Shown here in pieces: positions 21,001 to 27,000 of a stretch of 64,000 nucleotides of DNA. Origin of the DNA: an uncultured Methanosarcinales archaeon (lineage in GTDB: Archaea; Nanobdellota; Nanobdellia; Woesearchaeales; B54-G15); contig CAZFJK010000002.1 of assembly GCA_964519225.1 (NCBI GenBank), forward strand, positions 1-64,000. The letters are read 5' to 3'. Each line of letters opens with the position of its first letter. Position 1 is the first letter of the stretch. Position numbers: made by a program.

Positions 21001-24000
21001 TCCTATATAAAGAACTTCTTTTGGCCCGAGCTGAAAATGTTTTATTAATTGCCTTATTGCCCATGCCTTTCCTCTTGCTTTTAGCTGCTCGTCTGCAAGA
21101 ATTGCATTTGGTTTCATGTTGAATTTTTTGCATATATTTTTAACGAATGTAAAAGCATTGTTTGTTATTATCGCTGTTTTGATTCCGCTCTTGTTAAGTA
21201 TTTGTATTATATTTGGTTTGTACGGCTTTACTGTGCTTATGGATTTGAGAAAGGTTTGAATTGCTGTTTGTCTGATTTTTTGTTTTGGTATTTTCGGATT
21301 TAATTTATGAAAATAGTCCGCATTCTCGGTTACGCTTCTGCCGACGAATTCAATAAATTCTTTTTGAGAACGCTTTTTTCCTATAATCCTGCAGATTTCA
21401 GAATAAACTTTTTTCATTGCCTGAAGCGAATTAATCAAAGTCATGTCGAGATCGAAGATGAATAATTTGAACATTTTAGTTATTGATATTGGTATTATTA
21501 ATATAATTGAAGCGTTTTTTGTTTGAGTATCTTTTTTAATTCTTTATATGCTTGTTTAAATTGTTCTTTGTTGTATCTGATAGATTTTAATGCTTCTTCA
21601 TAACTGCACCATTTATAGTCGGAGTGTTCTATGCTTAGCTTTACTTTTTCCTTACTGTTGGCTCTCACAAGAAAGAAATGCAAGAACTTATGGATAAGTT
21701 CTCCTTCCCATTTGAACCAGTAGTCCCCTTTAATGTCTTTTAAGTGAGCTATGACCTTGCAATCTAAACCTGTCTCTTCTTTTACTTCGCGCTTTACTGC
21801 TTCTTCATAGCTTTCCTCTTTCTCTTTTTCGCCTTGAACGAATTGCCATCCCTCCCAAGTTCCCTGTTTTTTAAGGATAAGGAATTTTGGTTCTGTTTGT
21901 TTTTTATCTTCTAAATCAAAAATAATCGCTACTACGGTTTGCATTACTTTTACTTTAGATGAATTCTTCTGCGTTTTCATCTTTAGAGAGAATCTTTTCA
22001 AGGTTCTCTGGCCGGCACAGTTCTTCGAATGAGTTGAATAAAAAATCTGGATTTGCCTGCTTCAATTCTTCTTTTGAATAGCGTCCTGTTGGAAAGACAA
22101 CAGAAATAACACCAGTTTCTCGTGCACAAGCTACATCGCGAGGAGTATCGCCAAAGAGAATAATTTTATCGAATGGAAGTGCTTTATTTTTTGGAACGAG
22201 CTTTTTTTTAAGGGCATAGTTAATGGCTCTTGCAACAGCAATGTCAACGAGTTTTGCTCTTGATTTTGCATCATCTCCATAGGCTCCGATATCAAGGTTA
22301 AAATATTGAATAAGATTGAAATATCTGAGTTTGATTTCCGTTGTGCGACGAATGTTTCCAGTAAGGAGTCCGTACAAAATTAGTGGATTATGTGGATCGT
22401 CTGGGCACTGAATCTTACTTCTGATCAGCTGAAGAAAGCGCTCAACTCCCGGACAGACATATTTGTTTTCATTTGGTTCTTTTTCAAGTTCTTCTTTGAG
22501 CAAGTCGGGTAATTCAGATAGCACTAGTCTGGTTTTATACTCATGCTCTTTTTCTGGAATGCCTGTTTTAGACAAAACATCTTCAATTATTTCCTGATCT
22601 GTTCTTCCACCGAGATCAAGTTTGGTGAAATCCTTTTTCTTTTTAGTGGCGCGCTCAAAAGCTCTGGAGAAAGCCCTTCGCGAAGCATTGCCTGTTCTCA
22701 GCAAAGTTCCATCAACATCAAAGAGTAAAAGATAGGTCATTCTTTGTTTCAGCCAAGATAAGCTGGTGTTGTTGGTTCTTTTTTCTTTTGCTTTTTCTGT
22801 TTTGCTCTCTTTTCGAGTTTTTTGATTTGTTTTGGCTTTTCTATTTTTCCGAATTCCTTTTCATAGTTTTTGATTGCATCGCTGAGCAGTTCATGAAGTT
22901 TTTTTGCATGATAGGGATCGAGCATTATCACGTTGTGTCTAATCACATAATGATGTGCTTCCTTGCTTCTCGGGTCTATTCTCGGAGTTATTGTCTTGAA
23001 GTCGAGAACAAACTGCGTTGGACTGAAGTTTATTGAAGTCTCATGTGCAAAAAATTCAGGACCGTCGATGATGTTCAGGTTTATTCTTTTCTTTTCCATT
23101 TGTTTTTCACCTCTTTTTGGCTTAAAGAGAATGCATGTTTTAAATCTTTCTTATCGAAGTCGAATAGAAATCCGCCAGGAATGGCTTTACCTCCCGAATG
23201 AAGGTAGATTCGCCATTCTCGTAGAGCAAAAGGGTCTTTTGGATCAAGAACGTAGTTTAGATAATACCACGATAGCAATTCTTGAGCATGGGTACAATTG
23301 ATTATTTTACAAAAGAGGGGTTTTGCTTTATGTATTCTGCACAGATTGTTTTCTAAGAATATGCATTCGCTATATGGCTTTGAACTTGGCTTTGTTTTGA
23401 TTCGATAGACAAGCTTGTTAAACAAAATGATTTCTTCAAGATAGTTTTCTTTGAATTCTTTTTCGCTGAGATTAAGCAGGTTAGCGATATGTTTGATTTC
23501 TTGTTCAAGAACATAGCCAGAACTAAACCTGCAACAATTTCCGCATTGCTTGCATAGGGCATTTAGTTTCAAGATTTGATTAAGCGGTGTGGTTTTTGTT
23601 ATACGCATTTTTTATTCTTAAATCTATTAGCCCTAACTCGACTTCTAACTCTAACTCGCAAAAGTTTATATATATTCTTCTCTTTTAAACTCCTTGGTAT
23701 GAGAAAAGAGGTGAATAAAATAGCTGAGAAATCTTGGATAAATTCTAACTTACTGAAAAAAGCGAAACGCGATGGTGCACTGCTTGTTTTTGACAGATTT
23801 GAAGCACAGCAACCGCAGTGTAACTTTGGTAAAAGAGGCGTTTGCTGTAAAAATTGTTTTAGTGGACCGTGTAGAATAATTCCAGGCAAAGCTGATTACG
23901 GCGTTTGTGGGGCAACAGCTGATGTTATCGTAGCAAGAAATTTGCTGAGGCATGCTGGTGCTGGTGCAACATGCCATACTGATCATGCAAAAGAGACTGT

Positions 24001-27000
24001 TCTTGCATTGTATGAGATTGCAGAAGGAAAAGCTCCAGGCTATGGAATAAGAGATAAAGAAAAACTTTTGATGTTCGCCAAAAAGCTTGGAATAAAAACA
24101 AGCGGAAGGACGCTTAAAGCAATAGCGCGTGATCTCGTTTATGAAATTCTTGAAGATTTCAGACGACAGCAAGGATTATTTATTAAGAAAGAGGGAACTT
24201 ATTTGAATTGGTTAAGAATAAGGGCAACGAAAGAAAGAATAAAAACATGGCAAAAACTTGGAATCCTGCCTGTCAATGCTGATGCTGAAACTTCACATAT
24301 TTTACATCAAACAACCATGGGCTGTGATGCTGATCCTGTTGATTTATTACTTTCTGTTTTGAGGATCGGTCTTGTTGACGGTTACAGCGGATTAACTTTA
24401 GCTACAGATATTCAAGATATTATCTTTGGAACGCCAATGCCAGTGAAATCCGAAGCAAATCTTGGTGTGCTTAAAGAGGATTATGTAAATATTGTTGTTC
24501 ACGGGCATGTTCCTATATTATCTGAAAAGATTGTTGAATGGGCTAGGAAGTTGAACAGTACTGCAAAAAGAGTTGGCGCAAAGGGAATTAATGTTGTTGG
24601 TATTTGCTGTACTGGAATCGAGGTTTTGATGAGACAGGGTATTCCAATTGCAGGGCATGTTTTGCAGCAGGAAATGGCAATAGCTACTGGAGTTTGCGAT
24701 TTGATGATCGTTGATTTACAATGTATCTATCCTTCTGTTGCGAATGTTGCACAGTGCTACCATACCAAGATTGTGACGACGATCGATTATGTTAGAATTC
24801 CAGGAGCTGTACATATTCCGTTTGAGGTTGACAAGGCTGATGAAACAGCAAAAAAGATTGTAAAACTTGCTGTTGATAATTTCAAGAACAGAAGGAAGAG
24901 CAAGGTTTTTATTCCAAAGGAGAAAGCAGAAGTGTGGACCGGATTTTCTGTTGAAGCTATAATCGAGGCGTTGAAAAAGGTTAATCCAAGGGATCTTATG
25001 AAGCCACTTGTTGATGCGATAAAAAGCGGTGATATTTATGGTATTGTAGGCATTGTTGGTTGCAGAAATCCAAAAATGCAGGGAATGAAATTCCATGAAG
25101 AACTTACGAAGTTATTGATAAAGCGGAATATTCTTGTTGTAGGAACCGGTTGCTGGGCGCATGCTGCGGCACAGGAAGGTTTGCTTACGCCAGAAGCAAC
25201 TGAAAAATATGCAGGAGCAAAACTGAAAAAAGTTCTCAAAGTAGTTGGACAGGCAAATGGATTACCGGCATTGCCTCCTGCACTGCATATGGGAAGCTGC
25301 GTCGATAATGGCAGGATTGGGGTTTTACTCGGTATGCTTGCTGATTACCTGAAAGTGCCTATTCCTATGTTGCCTGTCGCAGGTAGTGCGCCTGAATATA
25401 TGGCAGAAAAAGCAGTTGCTATTGCGGTCTTTTTCCTTGCTTTAGGTTTGGCTGTGCATATTAATCCTGTTCCGCCAGTAACTGGATCAAAGCTAGTGAC
25501 GAAAGTACTGACAAAAGATCTTGAGGAAATAACCGGAGGAAAAGTTTTGCTGGCTGAAACGCCGGAAAAAGCTGCAAGAGCCATAATAGCGCACATAAGA
25601 AAGAAGAGAAAAGAGCTTGGATTAAGGATGTAAAAGGAAATATATCTTTCATCGAGGTTTTTAATCCGAAGAAATTTTCCTTTCCTGATTCTTTCAAGTT
25701 TTTCTAAGTATTCTTTTTTAGCTTTTGGTTCTTTTTCGATCATTGATTCCATAGTTCTATTTGTTTACTCACACTCGTTATTTAATATTGTTTTTAATCA
25801 TTTGAATTTTTGAGAAAAGAAGCGAATCTTTCGGCAAGCCTTTATCTGCTAGATCAGATGACCTTATCTTATCGTCGTATGGCAGAACTGCAAGTACAGG
25901 TAATCCAAGGATTTTAATTTCTTTTTCAATGAATTTTCTATCTTTTTCATCTTTAATTTTGTTAATTATTACATATATGTTCTTTATTCCAGACTCTTTG
26001 GCTAATTCTTTGATTTTTCTCGCTGTATCGATCGAGTTTGTACTTGGTTCGACAATAATAAGCAAAGCATCGATGTTTTTTATTGTTCCTCTACCGAGAT
26101 GTTCGAGTCCTGCTTCCATGTCGAGTATTATAATTTCTTTTCTTTCTGAAAGCAGGTGATCGATAAATGCTTTAAGTAATGCGTTTTCTGGACAGAAACA
26201 ACCTTGGCCTGCTTTTTTTATTGTTCCGAGAACAAGAGCATATATATTGTTATTACTAAGCTTTATTGCGTACTTATCGAGGAGATCATCTACTTTTGGT
26301 GTTAAGCTGAACAGTGCGCCATAGGAAGTGCCGGGTTTTGCTCCTGTTCTCTCTTCAATAAGATCGTACATTTCAGATAAGGGCGTTATTTTTTCGCGTA
26401 TTTCCTTTGCGATGCCGAATGCAGAAAGAAGATTGCTATCTGGATCAGCATCTATGGCTATGACTTTTTTATTTTCTTGAGCAAATGCCAATGCAAGTGC
26501 TGCGGCAATCGTTGTTTTGCCAACCCCGCCTTTGCCTGTGATTGCGAGTTTCATTATTTGATTTATTCAAAAACTATTTTGTGTTTTATGAAATCAATAT
26601 AAAGAAGCTTACCCTGGATTTCTTTTGAGTTTCCTTTGATGTCTTCTAAAATGAAGTCGCCATCGTTTTTAACCTTAAGCACTGCGACGTTCTCCATTAT
26701 TTTCTCATTACCTTTGAATGCATTAGATTCGCACATATCTTTCACCTCATTAACCGCATGGTACGAAGCTCATTGCCGAGTGCGAGTATTTGCGGTTTGA
26801 GGCATTTGTTTTATCAATTAGCTTTCATTTAAAAAGATTGGCCTGAAGAAATAGAACTTCAATTCAAAATTCTATAGCGACCAATGCCAAGACTTTCATT
26901 TGTGATTTGCATACTTTCTTCTTTGCTTGCGATATTAAACATAGCTCTTATAGCGTCTATATTTTCAGGTATTACTATTGCTTCCTGAGGTATTGCTTGA

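What a model noticed while it worked through the whole genome (the two positions that open the first line are those of the whole stretch)
23699..26745. Genus-specific CODH-IV-like CooS-CooC-CooT cluster
A complete Ni-CO dehydrogenase catalytic subunit (644 aa), with its maturation ATPase CooC and chaperone CooT, sits between archaeal genes in this 0.87-Mb genome. It is closest to CODH-IV of Carboxydothermus. It occurs only in this genus among 41 genomes of the order. No acetyl-CoA synthase or hydrogenase partner was seen among the ORFs scanned.
Evidence so far: - Pfam: Prismane 3e-163, CbiA-type CooC and CooT 1.5e-14. - PDB 6elq matches at 8e-225 over residues 16-641, with the Cys/His cluster motifs aligned. 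- PF03063 was found in G000 and G001 only, 2/41. - Neighbours are GAPDH, H+-PPase and Nre. - Literature: search 81; one paper checked by passages reports cooS in other groups, not in DPANN.
(Added by a program. Inside this text positions count along the whole contig: contig position 1 is position 1 of the stretch shown here. "Call 12" and the like, gene names such as g00115 and contig names such as C1 are that model's own, and its searches are not shown. The text may have been shortened before it was handed on; [...] marks where a part breaks off. The agent that wrote the report below was given it as the finding of a first reader that could run no searches.)

Follow-up and report, generated by a model that had tools for sequence, protein, structure and literature searches.

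The report
Nickel CO dehydrogenase in DPANN archaeon
A very small archaeal genome carries an intact gene set for the nickel enzyme that interconverts carbon monoxide and carbon dioxide; the enzyme belongs to a lineage shared by many such tiny archaea, so it is rare but not unique to this genus.

Summary
The cluster is real: cooS (23699-25633 +), cooC (25778-26554 -) and cooT (26563-26736 -) are intact, carry every metal-cluster ligand, and sit on a gap-free 15-kb stretch with archaeal genes and host-like codon usage. The 'genus-specific' reading fails for CooS. It falls in a well-supported clade whose named members are all DPANN archaea (Woese-, Pace-, Micr-, Aenigmat-, Parv-/Nanoarchaeota, Diapherotrites). 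The nearest outside groups are bacterial CooF-CooS-CooC-FNOR (CODH-IV-type) lineages. CooS is rare: 5 of 401 genomes sampled in the order and 4 of 401 in the phylum, and one hit in each sample belongs to another CooS clade. What is restricted to this genus is the CooC-CooT maturation pair (2 of 8 CooS-bearing DPANN genomes). No ACS, hydrogenase, Rnf, Nfn, AOR or FNR-type gene was found. The only other ferredoxin enzyme found is pyruvate:ferredoxin oxidoreductase, and one small [4Fe-4S] ferredoxin is the likely partner. The partial CooS on contig C37 is 100% identical to Archaeoglobaceae proteins, so it is probably mis-binned. DPANN CooS has been mentioned in passing in at least three papers. 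This is a new member of a known kind. Its physiological direction (CO oxidation or ferredoxin-driven CO2 reduction) is still open.

The parts
23699..25633 (+). cooS, Ni,Fe-CO dehydrogenase catalytic subunit (644 aa)
   Evidence: TIGR01702 719.7 bits, cut-off 478. PDB 6elq 8e-225. Residues C41, C49, C50, C53, C58, C70, H93, H268, C303/C304, C342, C455, C485, C534 and K571 are present, and all are invariant or nearly invariant in 36 DPANN-clade sequences. GC3 z = -0.12; codon-usage distance at the 24th percentile of genes of similar length.
23660..23676 (+). BRE/TATA-like element (TTTATATATA at 23665-23674), about 30 nt before the cooS ATG; implies a leaderless or short-leader transcript
   Evidence: Read directly from the sequence. 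Its function as a promoter is inferred, not tested.
25778..26554 (-). cooC, Ni-insertion ATPase (258 aa)
   Evidence: CbiA 2.4e-24. PDB CooC1 3kje 2.2e-51 over residues 1-229, with GKGGVGKT and the C-x-C motif aligned. Homologues are named 'CO dehydrogenase maturation factor'.
26563..26736 (-). cooT, small Ni chaperone (57 aa from the ATG at 26736; the ORF extends to a GTG at 26745)
   Evidence: PF10133 54.5 bits, cut-off 27. Whole-genome match at 26569-26736. RBS-like GAGGTGA before the ATG. The Cys after Met aligns with Cys2 of PDB 6fan.
23081..23608 (-). Divergently transcribed CxxCxxCC (PF03692, YkgJ-like) protein of 175 aa; kept beside cooS in the sister genome; role unknown
   Evidence: PF03692 5.3e-10. 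90% identical copy in the same position in G122/L173. Not found beside cooS in any other DPANN-clade locus. No solved relative.
22749..23099 (-). DUF3467 gene; a syntenic neighbour that is probably unrelated to CODH
   Evidence: PF11950. The family occurs in 155 of 401 genomes of the order.
26859..27905 (-). Archaeal-type GAPDH, directly upstream of cooT-cooC on the same strand
   Evidence: Gp_dh_C 9.5e-30. Also present near the cluster in L022.

Best explanation
This is a native, functional, stand-alone Ni,Fe-CO dehydrogenase of a Woesearchaeota-type DPANN archaeon.

Shown:
- CooS has all ligands of the D, B and C clusters.
- CooC (ATP-dependent Ni insertion) and CooT (Ni chaperone with N-terminal Cys) lie next to it.

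Inferred:
- The enzyme oxidises CO to CO2.
- It passes the two electrons through its B and D clusters to the genome's one small single-cluster [4Fe-4S] ferredoxin (contig C1). The counterpart of this ferredoxin is encoded directly upstream of cooS in related DPANN loci.
- The reduced ferredoxin then serves the few ferredoxin users in this 0.87-Mb genome. These are the four-subunit pyruvate:ferredoxin oxidoreductase, which can run towards pyruvate and, with PEP synthase and the adjacent GAPDH, feed gluconeogenesis; and low-potential Fe-S enzymes such as the radical-SAM tRNA-modification enzymes and QueH.
- CO is therefore an auxiliary low-potential reductant, not a carbon source (no ACS) and not a hydrogenogenic energy source (no hydrogenase).

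Evolution: the CooS belongs to a DPANN-wide clade nested among bacterial CooF-CooS-CooC-FNOR lineages, so an old bacterium-to-DPANN transfer is the simplest reading. The CooC-CooT pair of this genus is of archaeal type and was probably added separately.
For: Identity:
- Family and structure matches.
- Ligand residues.

Native to the genome:
- Archaeal neighbours TIP49, NOG1, Nre.
- Same gene order DUF3467-CxxCxxCC-cooS-...-cooC-cooT in G122 at 91% identity.
- Typical GC3 and codon usage.
- TATA-like element before cooS.
- Even depth and contigs bridging both cluster borders in 4 runs of 2 samples. These may include the source sample, so they are not independent.

Clade:
- All named proteins above 55% identity are DPANN.
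- The clade has 100 support in FastTree (202 rows) and in IQ-TREE LG+C20 (61 rows).
- The sister group includes loci with sigma-54 genes and CooF-CooS-CooC-Pyr_redox_2 operons.

Partner:
- A small ferredoxin lies within 5 kb of cooS in 14 of 33 DPANN-clade loci, and within 13 bp in 9 of them.
- G000 encodes a 64-aa Fer4_15/Fer4_13 ferredoxin that is 61% identical to the one 2 bp upstream of cooS in L181.

Context in G000:
- POR gamma, delta, alpha and beta, which runs off contig C35.
- ACD and PEP synthase/PPDK present.
- No ACS, [NiFe] or [FeFe] hydrogenase, FTR-B, AOR, Fer4_20/Nfn, Rnf or NAD_binding_1.
- Among 87 Cys-rich proteins scanned, the only other Fe-S enzymes were eight radical-SAM proteins, QueH, helicases and the like.

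CooC/CooT:
- Found in 2 of 8 CooS-bearing DPANN genomes.
- Nearest named CooC relatives are Thermoplasmata, Methanomassiliicoccales, Hydrothermarchaeaceae and Nitrososphaerales at 51-54%.
Against: - No electron carrier is encoded in the cluster itself. The ferredoxin is on another contig, so the pairing is inferred from relatives only.
- The direction of catalysis cannot be read from sequence. The same gene set fits ferredoxin-driven CO2 reduction equally well.
- The proteome was not scanned in full. Only targeted families and 87 Cys-rich ORFs were checked, and the MAG is 97% complete in 53 contigs, so a partner could have been missed.
- Six of 8 CooS-bearing DPANN genomes lack a recognisable CooC or CooT, so these accessory genes may not be essential to the clade.
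- The direction of the ancient transfer depends on an outgroup root and on sister rows that mostly carry no names (one search returned none).
- The DPANN clade was delimited on the tree. Only about 12 of its 85 rows carry a taxon name, and two more come from genomes of the window's order (G236, G121).
Confidence: 0.55

Rival explanations
1. Ferredoxin valve running in reverse. POR oxidises pyruvate and reduces ferredoxin. With no hydrogenase, Rnf or Nfn available, CooS re-oxidises the ferredoxin by reducing CO2 to CO. The CO diffuses to a CO-consuming host or neighbour, and acetyl-CoA yields ATP through ACD or acetate kinase.
For: - POR and CooS are the only ferredoxin oxidoreductases found in G000.
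- ACD and acetate kinase are present.
- POR_N is in 8 of 8 CooS-bearing DPANN genomes, but a hydrogenase is in only 2 of 8 (G236 [NiFe], G402 [FeFe]).
- The pyruvate/acetyl-CoA and CO2/CO couples are nearly isopotential (textbook values, recalled), so low ambient CO would pull the reaction.
Against: - The nearest characterised enzyme, CODH-IV, is described by its paper's title as a CO scavenger. That title was seen only in a reference list.
- No base rate of hydrogenase among CooS-free relatives was measured, so 2 of 8 may be ordinary.
- No CO-consuming partner is shown.
Confidence: 0.15
2. CO-driven thiol and oxidative-stress defence. Electrons from CO reach disulfide or peroxide reductases, as proposed for the C. 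hydrogenoformans CODH-IV operon with rubrerythrin.
For: - In Pacearchaeota-type relatives, CooS is fused to a ferredoxin:thioredoxin-reductase catalytic domain: 13 of the 120 best homologues and PF02943 1.9e-21 in L187. CPC/CPC/CLC motifs are kept in 12 of 13.
- Those loci also carry glutaredoxin, DUF1858, thioredoxin-like, NifU and NifS genes.
- In G000 the ferredoxin gene lies about 1.4 kb from a Trx-TrxR pair.
- The CODH-IV/rubrerythrin hypothesis is in PMC1287953 (section read).
Against: - G000 has no FTR-B domain.
- Its TrxR keeps the CAVC motif and an NADPH-type GGRNSA...YRRDKLRA signature (the motif meaning is recalled).
- No ferredoxin:NADP reductase was found.
- Only a weak 102-aa rubrerythrin/EncFtn-like ORF exists, on another contig.
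Confidence: 0.15
3. Assembly or binning artefact: the coo genes belong to another organism.
For: - The bin does hold at least one foreign CooS fragment, on C37.
- The scaffold has N gaps.
Against: - The cluster lies inside a gap-free 15-kb stretch that also carries Nre and other archaeal genes.
- The same synteny appears in a second genome of the genus.
- Codon usage matches the host.
- The nearest relatives come from many separate DPANN assemblies. Two of them sit on single contigs of 0.83 and 0.86 Mb.
Confidence: 0.03
4. A decaying or silent relic with no present function.
For: - CooS is patchy in the lineage: about 1% of genomes.
- In G122 a ParE-like toxin gene has been inserted between cooS and cooC.
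Against: - All three ORFs are intact in both genomes of the genus.
- All catalytic residues are conserved.
- 91% protein identity between the two genomes, with every ligand kept.
Confidence: 0.05

Closest known systems
CODH-IV of Carboxydothermus hydrogenoformans (PDB 6elq) and the bacterial CooF-CooS-(CooC)-FNOR clusters
   Same: It is the best solved match (8e-225), and relatives in Carboxydothermus are 55% identical. All cluster ligands align. This bacterial clade is among the nearest outside relatives in both trees.
   Different: The window's CooS lies in a separate clade of DPANN sequences. Its locus has no CooF, no FAD/NAD oxidoreductase and no rubrerythrin. O2 tolerance and CO affinity cannot be tested here.
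CooS of other DPANN archaea (Woese-, Pace-, Micr-, Aenigmat-, Parv-/Nanoarchaeota, Diapherotrites MAGs)
   Same: Same clade, 55-91% identity, same invariant residues. Genomes are small, and POR is present in 8 of 8 checked.
   Different: Relatives usually pair cooS with a small ferredoxin directly upstream, or fuse it to an FTR catalytic domain. They lack CooC and CooT. The window's genus has CooC and CooT, with the ferredoxin encoded elsewhere.
CooS-CooC-CooT operons of Thermococci/Desulfurococcaceae type ('TcCODH-II-like'; PDB 6t7j is the second-best hit)
   Same: These operons have the same three-gene content without CooJ. Nine metagenome loci of this type have CooC and CooT directly downstream of cooS, and their CooT is 33-53% identical to the window's. 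The preprint 10.1101/2025.09.14.676152 (passages) calls this the only CODH group that has CooT alone.
   Different: Their CooS is only 50-54% identical and lies in another clade. There the three genes are co-directional. In the window, cooT-cooC converge on cooS.
Rhodospirillum rubrum CooS with CooF, CooCTJ and the Coo hydrogenase; CODH/ACS complexes
   Same: Same catalytic subunit family and the same CooC/CooT maturation logic (PDB 1jqk 4e-170, 1mjg 6.6e-164).
   Different: G000 has no hydrogenase, no ACS, no CooF-type protein beside the gene and no CooJ. G065, a 2.3-Mb genome of the same order, does have a CooS of another clade (43% identity) next to CdhC.

Membership tests
Ni,Fe-CODH catalytic subunit CooS (TIGR01702 / PF03063) | Score above the curated equivalog cut-off over the full length | tested here: met
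   719.7 bits against 478, residues 17-642 matched to model positions 8-621.
Ni,Fe-CODH catalytic subunit CooS (TIGR01702 / PF03063) | C-cluster ligands (one His and five Cys), plus catalytic Lys and His | tested here: met
   H268, C303/C304, C342, C455, C485, C534, K571 and H93 are present. They align with 6elq and are invariant in 36 clade members. The assignment of roles to these residues is recalled from the CODH-II literature.
Ni,Fe-CODH catalytic subunit CooS (TIGR01702 / PF03063) | B- and D-cluster cysteines in the N-terminal domain | tested here: met
   C41, C49, C50, C53, C58 and C70 are present.
Ni,Fe-CODH catalytic subunit CooS (TIGR01702 / PF03063) | CO oxidation / CO2 reduction activity | not testable with these tools
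   Needs an enzyme assay.
CODH-IV / CODH-FNOR type (C. hydrogenoformans CHY0735-8) | Branches inside the bacterial CODH-IV clade | tested here: not met
   The protein lies in a separate DPANN clade (support 100). The CODH-IV clade holding the Carboxydothermus rows is a distinct group with support 100.
CODH-IV / CODH-FNOR type (C. hydrogenoformans CHY0735-8) | Operon with CooF and a FAD/NAD oxidoreductase (with or without rubrerythrin) | tested here: not met
   None of these genes lies within 15167-37977. The operon content used as the standard is taken from PMC1287953 and PMC13000667 (passages).
CODH-IV / CODH-FNOR type (C. hydrogenoformans CHY0735-8) | High CO affinity and O2 tolerance | not testable with these tools
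   This is a biochemical property.
CooC (CODH Ni-insertion ATPase) | Deviant Walker A P-loop and the C-x-C metal motif; similarity to characterised CooC | tested here: met
   GKGGVGKT and GCFCPE are present. 3kje 2.2e-51 with the motif aligned. No CooC-specific NCBIfam model matched; the best hit was MinD, below its cut-off.
CooT (PF10133) | Score above the Pfam gathering cut-off; N-terminal Cys2 | tested here: met
   54.5 bits against 27. The protein starts Met-Cys if translated from the ATG at 26736, and the Cys aligns to Cys2 of 6fan. The Ni-binding role of Cys2 is recalled.
CODH/ACS (Wood-Ljungdahl) system | Acetyl-CoA synthase subunit (CdhC/AcsB) in the genome | tested here: not met
   PF03598 has no match in G000, which is 97% complete.
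Hydrogenogenic CODH-ECH system | [NiFe] hydrogenase large subunit | tested here: not met
   PF00374 and PF02906 have no match in G000.

The most novel reading that the evidence does not exclude
In hydrogenase-free DPANN archaea such as this one, CooS is the only outlet for ferredoxin reduced by pyruvate:ferredoxin oxidoreductase. The cell would ferment pyruvate to acetate while reducing CO2 to CO, and would hand the CO to a CO-oxidising host or neighbour. That would be interspecies CO transfer in place of interspecies H2 transfer. The FTR-CooS fusions of sister lineages would be a second, thiol-directed use of the same module.
Probability: 0.12. Interest if true: 0.8.

Novelty: new member of a known kind. 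Interest (0 to 1): 0.45.

Why it matters
DPANN archaea are thought to live on a minimal fermentative metabolism borrowed from hosts. How those without hydrogenases balance reduced ferredoxin is an open question. This cluster belongs to a coherent CooS lineage that spans many DPANN phyla. In each genome checked it pairs only with POR and a small ferredoxin, or is fused to a thioredoxin-reductase domain. That makes CO a candidate redox currency for these organisms and offers a compact three-gene set (cooS, cooC, cooT plus one ferredoxin) that could be expressed and assayed. It also corrects the record for this bin: one of its two CooS hits is a mis-binned Archaeoglobaceae fragment.

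Tried and rejected
1. DUF3467 co-transferred with cooS. The family also sits beside cooF-cooS in the bacterial loci L202 and L205, but it occurs in 155 of 401 genomes of the order (8 of those hits are unpublished genomes). It is an ordinary resident gene, so the idea was rejected.
2. FTR-B domain in G000: none found.
3. The 95-aa 2x[4Fe-4S] protein on C35 as a free ferredoxin. It is the POR delta subunit, lying between the gamma and alpha subunits.
4. Names for unnamed clade and sister proteins: the listing of cluster members returned no names for any of the 10 asked.
5. Expression: no RNA holder was listed for 23081-26745, so nothing can be said about expression.
6. Reads: only Logan contigs of 4 DNA runs from 2 samples of one study could be laid. 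They bridge the cluster borders but may include the source sample.
8. Whole-proteome Pfam scan: prepared but not run in full, because the output would have been too large. It was replaced by targeted family searches and one scan of 87 of the 98 listed Cys-rich ORFs (7 or more Cys, 90-650 aa). The other 11 had been scanned earlier.
9. Complex prediction and structure prediction were not used. A carrier-enzyme pair is a poor case for the first, and CooS is about 56% identical to a solved structure.
10. Literature on an FTR-CODH fusion: the search 'ferredoxin thioredoxin reductase' + 'CODH' + 'archaea' gave 0 papers. An earlier form of the query failed on syntax.
11. PMC8091004, PMC8407392, PMC7495880, PMC11216029, PMC13473441, PMC8470020 and 10.1101/2020.10.18.342550 (passages only) say nothing on Ni-CODH in DPANN genomes.

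Full report
**What is there**

The ORF table and translations show three intact genes:
- cooS, 23699-25633 on the + strand, 644 aa.
- cooC, 25778-26554 on the - strand, 258 aa.
- cooT, an ORF at 26563-26745 on the - strand.

CooS scores 719.7 bits against the NCBIfam equivalog TIGR01702, whose cut-off is 478, and 3e-163 against PF03063. Its best solved relative is 6elq at 8e-225 over residues 16-641. Next come 6t7j (4.4e-195) and the CODH-II entries.

All residues aligned with the metal-cluster ligands are present: C41, C49, C50, C53, C58, C70, H268, C303/C304, C342, C455, C485 and C534, plus H93 and K571. All are invariant or nearly invariant in an alignment of 36 relatives. The roles of these residues are recalled from the CODH-II literature.

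CooC matches the solved CooC1 3kje at 2.2e-51, with the P-loop and the C-x-C motif aligned. CooT passes PF10133 (54.5 bits, cut-off 27).

The real cooT start is most likely the ATG at 26736:
- It is preceded by GAGGTGA.
- It gives a 57-aa protein, as in the sister genome.
- It puts the Cys at position 2, aligned to Cys2 of the solved CooT 6fan.

A TTTATATATA element lies about 30 nt before the cooS ATG.

**Is it native?**

The window has three N runs. The cluster lies in the gap-free piece 20588-35693. That piece also carries HAD and NUDIX hydrolases, DUF3467, a CxxCxxCC protein, GAPDH, H+-PPase and the archaeal Nre protein. TIP49, NOG1-N and NFACT lie just upstream.

Composition fits the host. 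CooS has GC3 z = -0.12, and its codon-usage distance is at the 24th percentile of genes of similar length.

G122, the other genome of the genus, has the same order DUF3467-CxxCxxCC-cooS-cooC-cooT at 91% CooS identity. It has one extra ParE-like ORF between cooS and cooC.

Logan contigs of four DNA runs (two samples of one study) cover the region at even depth and bridge three junctions:
- CxxCxxCC to cooS.
- cooC to cooT.
- cooT to GAPDH.

These runs may include the source sample, so they are weak support. I put contamination at about 3%.

**The second CooS**

G000 has a second Prismane hit, a 263-aa C-terminal fragment at the start of the 4-kb contig C37. It is 100% identical over its whole length to several full-length proteins. 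One is named Archaeoglobaceae archaeon. It is also 93-95% identical to Archaeoglobales MAG proteins and about 80% identical to the proteins of Archaeoglobus sulfaticallidus and Geoglobus acetivorans. Its GC3 is 2.6 SD above the genome mean, and G122 has no counterpart. C37 is most likely a mis-binned Archaeoglobaceae fragment.

**Distribution**

In a sample of 401 genomes of the order, TIGR01702 passes its cut-off in 5: G000, G122, G236, G065 and the unpublished G121. These come from four families.

By identity to the window's CooS:
- G236 is 63%.
- G121 is 60%.
- G065 is only 43%. Its gene sits beside an ACS (CdhC) gene in a 2.3-Mb genome, so it is a different system.

In a sample of 401 high-quality genomes of the phylum, 4 match at E <= 1e-100. 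They are G000, G406 (56%), G567 (57%, in a 732-aa frame) and G574 (39%).

CooS is therefore rare here, about 1% of genomes, but it is not confined to the genus.

**Relatives and tree**

Among the 120 best of 7617 homologues, every named protein above 55% identity is from a DPANN archaeon. The names are Woesearchaeota, Diapherotrites, Nanoarchaeota/Nanoarchaeia and Pacearchaeota, plus one labelled only 'archaeon'. The first named bacterium, Carboxydothermus, appears at 55%.

Species-representative genomes add five more named lineages:
- Micrarchaeota, 70%.
- Aenigmatarchaeota, 62%.
- Parvarchaeota, 61%.
- Nanoarchaeota, 61%.
- An 'archaeon', 59%.

A FastTree of 202 rows and an IQ-TREE (LG+C20 PMSF, quick search) of 61 rows both recover one clade with support 100. 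It holds all these sequences and no named non-DPANN sequence. I delimited this clade on the tree, and most of its rows are unnamed, so 'DPANN clade' rests on its roughly dozen named members. It also rests on two members that lie on single metagenome contigs of 0.83 and 0.86 Mb.

The sister group (support 99) was unnamed, and a cluster look-up returned no names. Six metagenome loci group with it (99, FastTree). The three I annotated carry sigma-54 or its activator and the operon CooF-CooS-CooC-Pyr_redox_2. One of them has a [NiFe] hydrogenase downstream.

The next group out is the Bacillota clade that holds the Carboxydothermus, Thermincola and Carboxydocellales CODH-IV/FNOR enzymes.

With the outgroup root, the DPANN clade is nested among bacterial CooF-CooS-CooC-FNOR lineages. 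The simplest reading is an old transfer from bacteria followed by loss of CooF and FNOR. That direction is inferred, not tested.

**Gene neighbourhoods**

I compared 33 DPANN-clade loci. They are the window, G236, G121, four genome-contig loci and 26 metagenome loci. Duplicates L178, L183 and L052, the same-genus loci L173 and L240, and L179 (no ORF found) were left out.

- The one strongly recurrent neighbour is a small ferredoxin of 58-127 aa. It lies within 5 kb in 14 of 33 loci and within 13 bp of cooS in 9. L175 and L176 are near-copies of each other.
- Eight loci, and 13 of the 120 best homologues, encode CooS fused to an N-terminal ferredoxin:thioredoxin-reductase catalytic domain (PF02943 1.9e-21 in L187). 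The CPC/CPC/CLC motifs are kept in 12 of 13.
- Some of these fusion loci also hold NifU, NifS, DUF1858, glutaredoxin and ArsR genes.
- CooC and CooT occur beside cooS only in the window's genus.

Genome-wide, CooC (E <= 1e-10) and CooT are found in 2 of 8 CooS-bearing DPANN genomes, namely G000 and G122. G404 has only a 29%-identical MinD-like hit.

Outside the genus, the window's CooC has unnamed relatives at 70% and 60%. After those come archaeal proteins at 51-54%, named Thermoplasmata, Methanomassiliicoccales, Hydrothermarchaeaceae and Nitrososphaerales. Its CooT is 33-53% identical to the CooT of Thermococci/Desulfurococcaceae-type CooS-CooC-CooT loci.

So the maturation pair, not the enzyme, is what is special to this genus. 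It probably has a separate, archaeal origin.

**Metabolic context in G000 (97% complete)**

Not found:
- ACS.
- [NiFe] or [FeFe] hydrogenase.
- FTR-B.
- AOR/GAPOR.
- Nfn/GltD-type Fer4_20.
- Rnf.
- FNR-type NAD_binding_1.

Found:
- A four-subunit POR on C35: gamma, delta and alpha, and beta, which runs off the contig end.
- ADP-forming acetyl-CoA synthetase and acetate kinase.
- PEP synthase/PPDK.
- A Trx-TrxR pair, whose TrxR keeps CAVC and an NADPH-type motif.
- A weak rubrerythrin/EncFtn-like ORF.
- Eight radical-SAM enzymes and QueH among 87 Cys-rich ORFs scanned.
- One free ferredoxin. This is a 64-aa single-cluster protein on C1, hidden under a longer spurious ORF. It is 61% identical to the ferredoxin that lies 2 bp upstream of cooS in L181.

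POR_N is present in 8 of 8 CooS-bearing DPANN genomes checked. A hydrogenase is present in 2 of 8.

The proteome was not scanned in full, so these absences mean 'not found with these queries'.

**Mechanism**

*Shown:* a complete CooS with its Ni-insertion helpers.

*Inferred:* electrons pass between CO/CO2 and the small ferredoxin, and the only other ferredoxin oxidoreductase is POR.

I favour CO oxidation feeding ferredoxin, at 0.55 including identity. The reduced ferredoxin would drive pyruvate synthesis from acetyl-CoA, with PEP synthase and the adjacent GAPDH leading to gluconeogenesis. It would also serve low-potential Fe-S enzymes.

The mirror image fits the same genes (0.15). POR would reduce ferredoxin, and CooS would dispose of the electrons as CO in a cell without hydrogenase.

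A thiol or oxidative-stress role (0.15) is suggested by the FTR fusions of relatives and by the CODH-IV/rubrerythrin hypothesis of PMC1287953 (section read). But G000 lacks the FTR domain and lacks any ferredoxin:NADP link.

**Literature**

I ran these searches:
- 'DPANN' + 'cooS': 25 papers.
- 'Woesearchaeota' + 'carbon monoxide dehydrogenase': 25 papers.
- 'Pacearchaeota' + the same phrase: 14 papers.
- The title of the Ni-CODH diversity paper.
- 'CODH-IV' + 'rubrerythrin'.
- An FTR/CODH search: 0 papers.

Passages read:
- PMC5864196: CooS only in Micrarchaeota group 3.
- PMC9723730: three Woesearchaeota MAGs with 'anaerobic carbon monoxide dehydrogenase (cdhAB)'.
- PMC6344411: its table lists one Pacearchaeota Ni-CODH. 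The terms DPANN, Woesearchaeota and thioredoxin do not occur in it.
- 10.1101/2025.09.14.676152: clade E/F operon statistics, and CooT-only operons of the TcCODH-II type. The terms DPANN and thioredoxin do not occur in it.
- PMC13000667: the CODH-FNOR reading.

The supplements of these papers were not opened and may list more DPANN CODHs.

I found no paper that treats the DPANN CooS lineage as a unit, its ferredoxin pairing or the FTR fusion. That statement rests on these searches only.

**Verdict**

This is a real, native Ni-CODH cluster and a new member of a known kind. The claim of genus specificity fails for CooS and holds only for the CooC-CooT pair. The wider pattern is a DPANN-wide, partner-poor CooS lineage with ferredoxin pairing and FTR fusions. 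It is moderately interesting and directly testable. Interest 0.45.

Noticed in passing
Loci L182, L185, L186, L187, L190, L192, L198, L244 (for example L187:5671-7878 +); proteins P0048-P0077: In Pacearchaeota-type relatives, CooS carries an N-terminal ferredoxin:thioredoxin-reductase catalytic domain (PF02943) with CPC/CPC/CLC motifs. Some of these loci also hold NifU, NifS, DUF1858 and glutaredoxin genes. One such gene lies on an 831-kb single contig. No paper on this fusion was found.
   Followed up: partly
G000 contig C37 (L016:2-793 +): The partial CooS (263 aa) is 100% identical to proteins named Archaeoglobaceae. The 4-kb contig also carries TrmB- and LysR-type regulators. It is probably mis-binned. 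A co-binned Archaeoglobaceae fragment could hint at a co-varying host, but that was not tested.
   Followed up: partly
G000 contig C1, about 70562-73344 (L105:14200-17036): Glutamate dehydrogenase, TrxR, thioredoxin, a CrtC/lipocalin-like protein and the genome's only free small [4Fe-4S] ferredoxin lie together. The ferredoxin ORF (64 aa) is overlapped by a longer spurious ORF on the other strand, so gene callers could miss it.
   Followed up: partly
L022:7276-7536 (-), and the same position in G122 (L004:3355-3615): A ParE/YafQ-like toxin ORF (86 aa) is inserted between cooS and cooC in the sister genome. It is absent from the window.
   Followed up: no
G065:C17, about 39000-43000 (L006): A 2.3-Mb genome placed in the same order has CooC-CooS of a different clade (43% identity) followed by an ACS (CdhC) gene. 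This is a CODH/ACS-type system and is unusual for this order.
   Followed up: partly
window 15904-15913, 20488-20587, 35694-35793: Runs of N (10, 100 and 100 bases), presumably scaffold gaps or withheld bases. The second cuts the NOG1-like ORF, and the third cuts the start of a 775-aa ORF.
   Followed up: no
G000 contig C13 18977-21056 (L134, about 489-2568): A thioredoxin gene is followed by two tandem MinD/ParA-type ATPases, each with an inserted 2x[4Fe-4S] ferredoxin domain (CbiA + Fer4). Their function is unknown, and they could be Fe-S carrier or maturation proteins.
   Followed up: no
window 45255-49706 (+) and other contigs (C3, C4, C5, C11, C14): Several very large Cys-rich ORFs (1483 aa in the window; up to 3260 aa elsewhere), typical of DPANN surface proteins. 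They were not examined.
   Followed up: no
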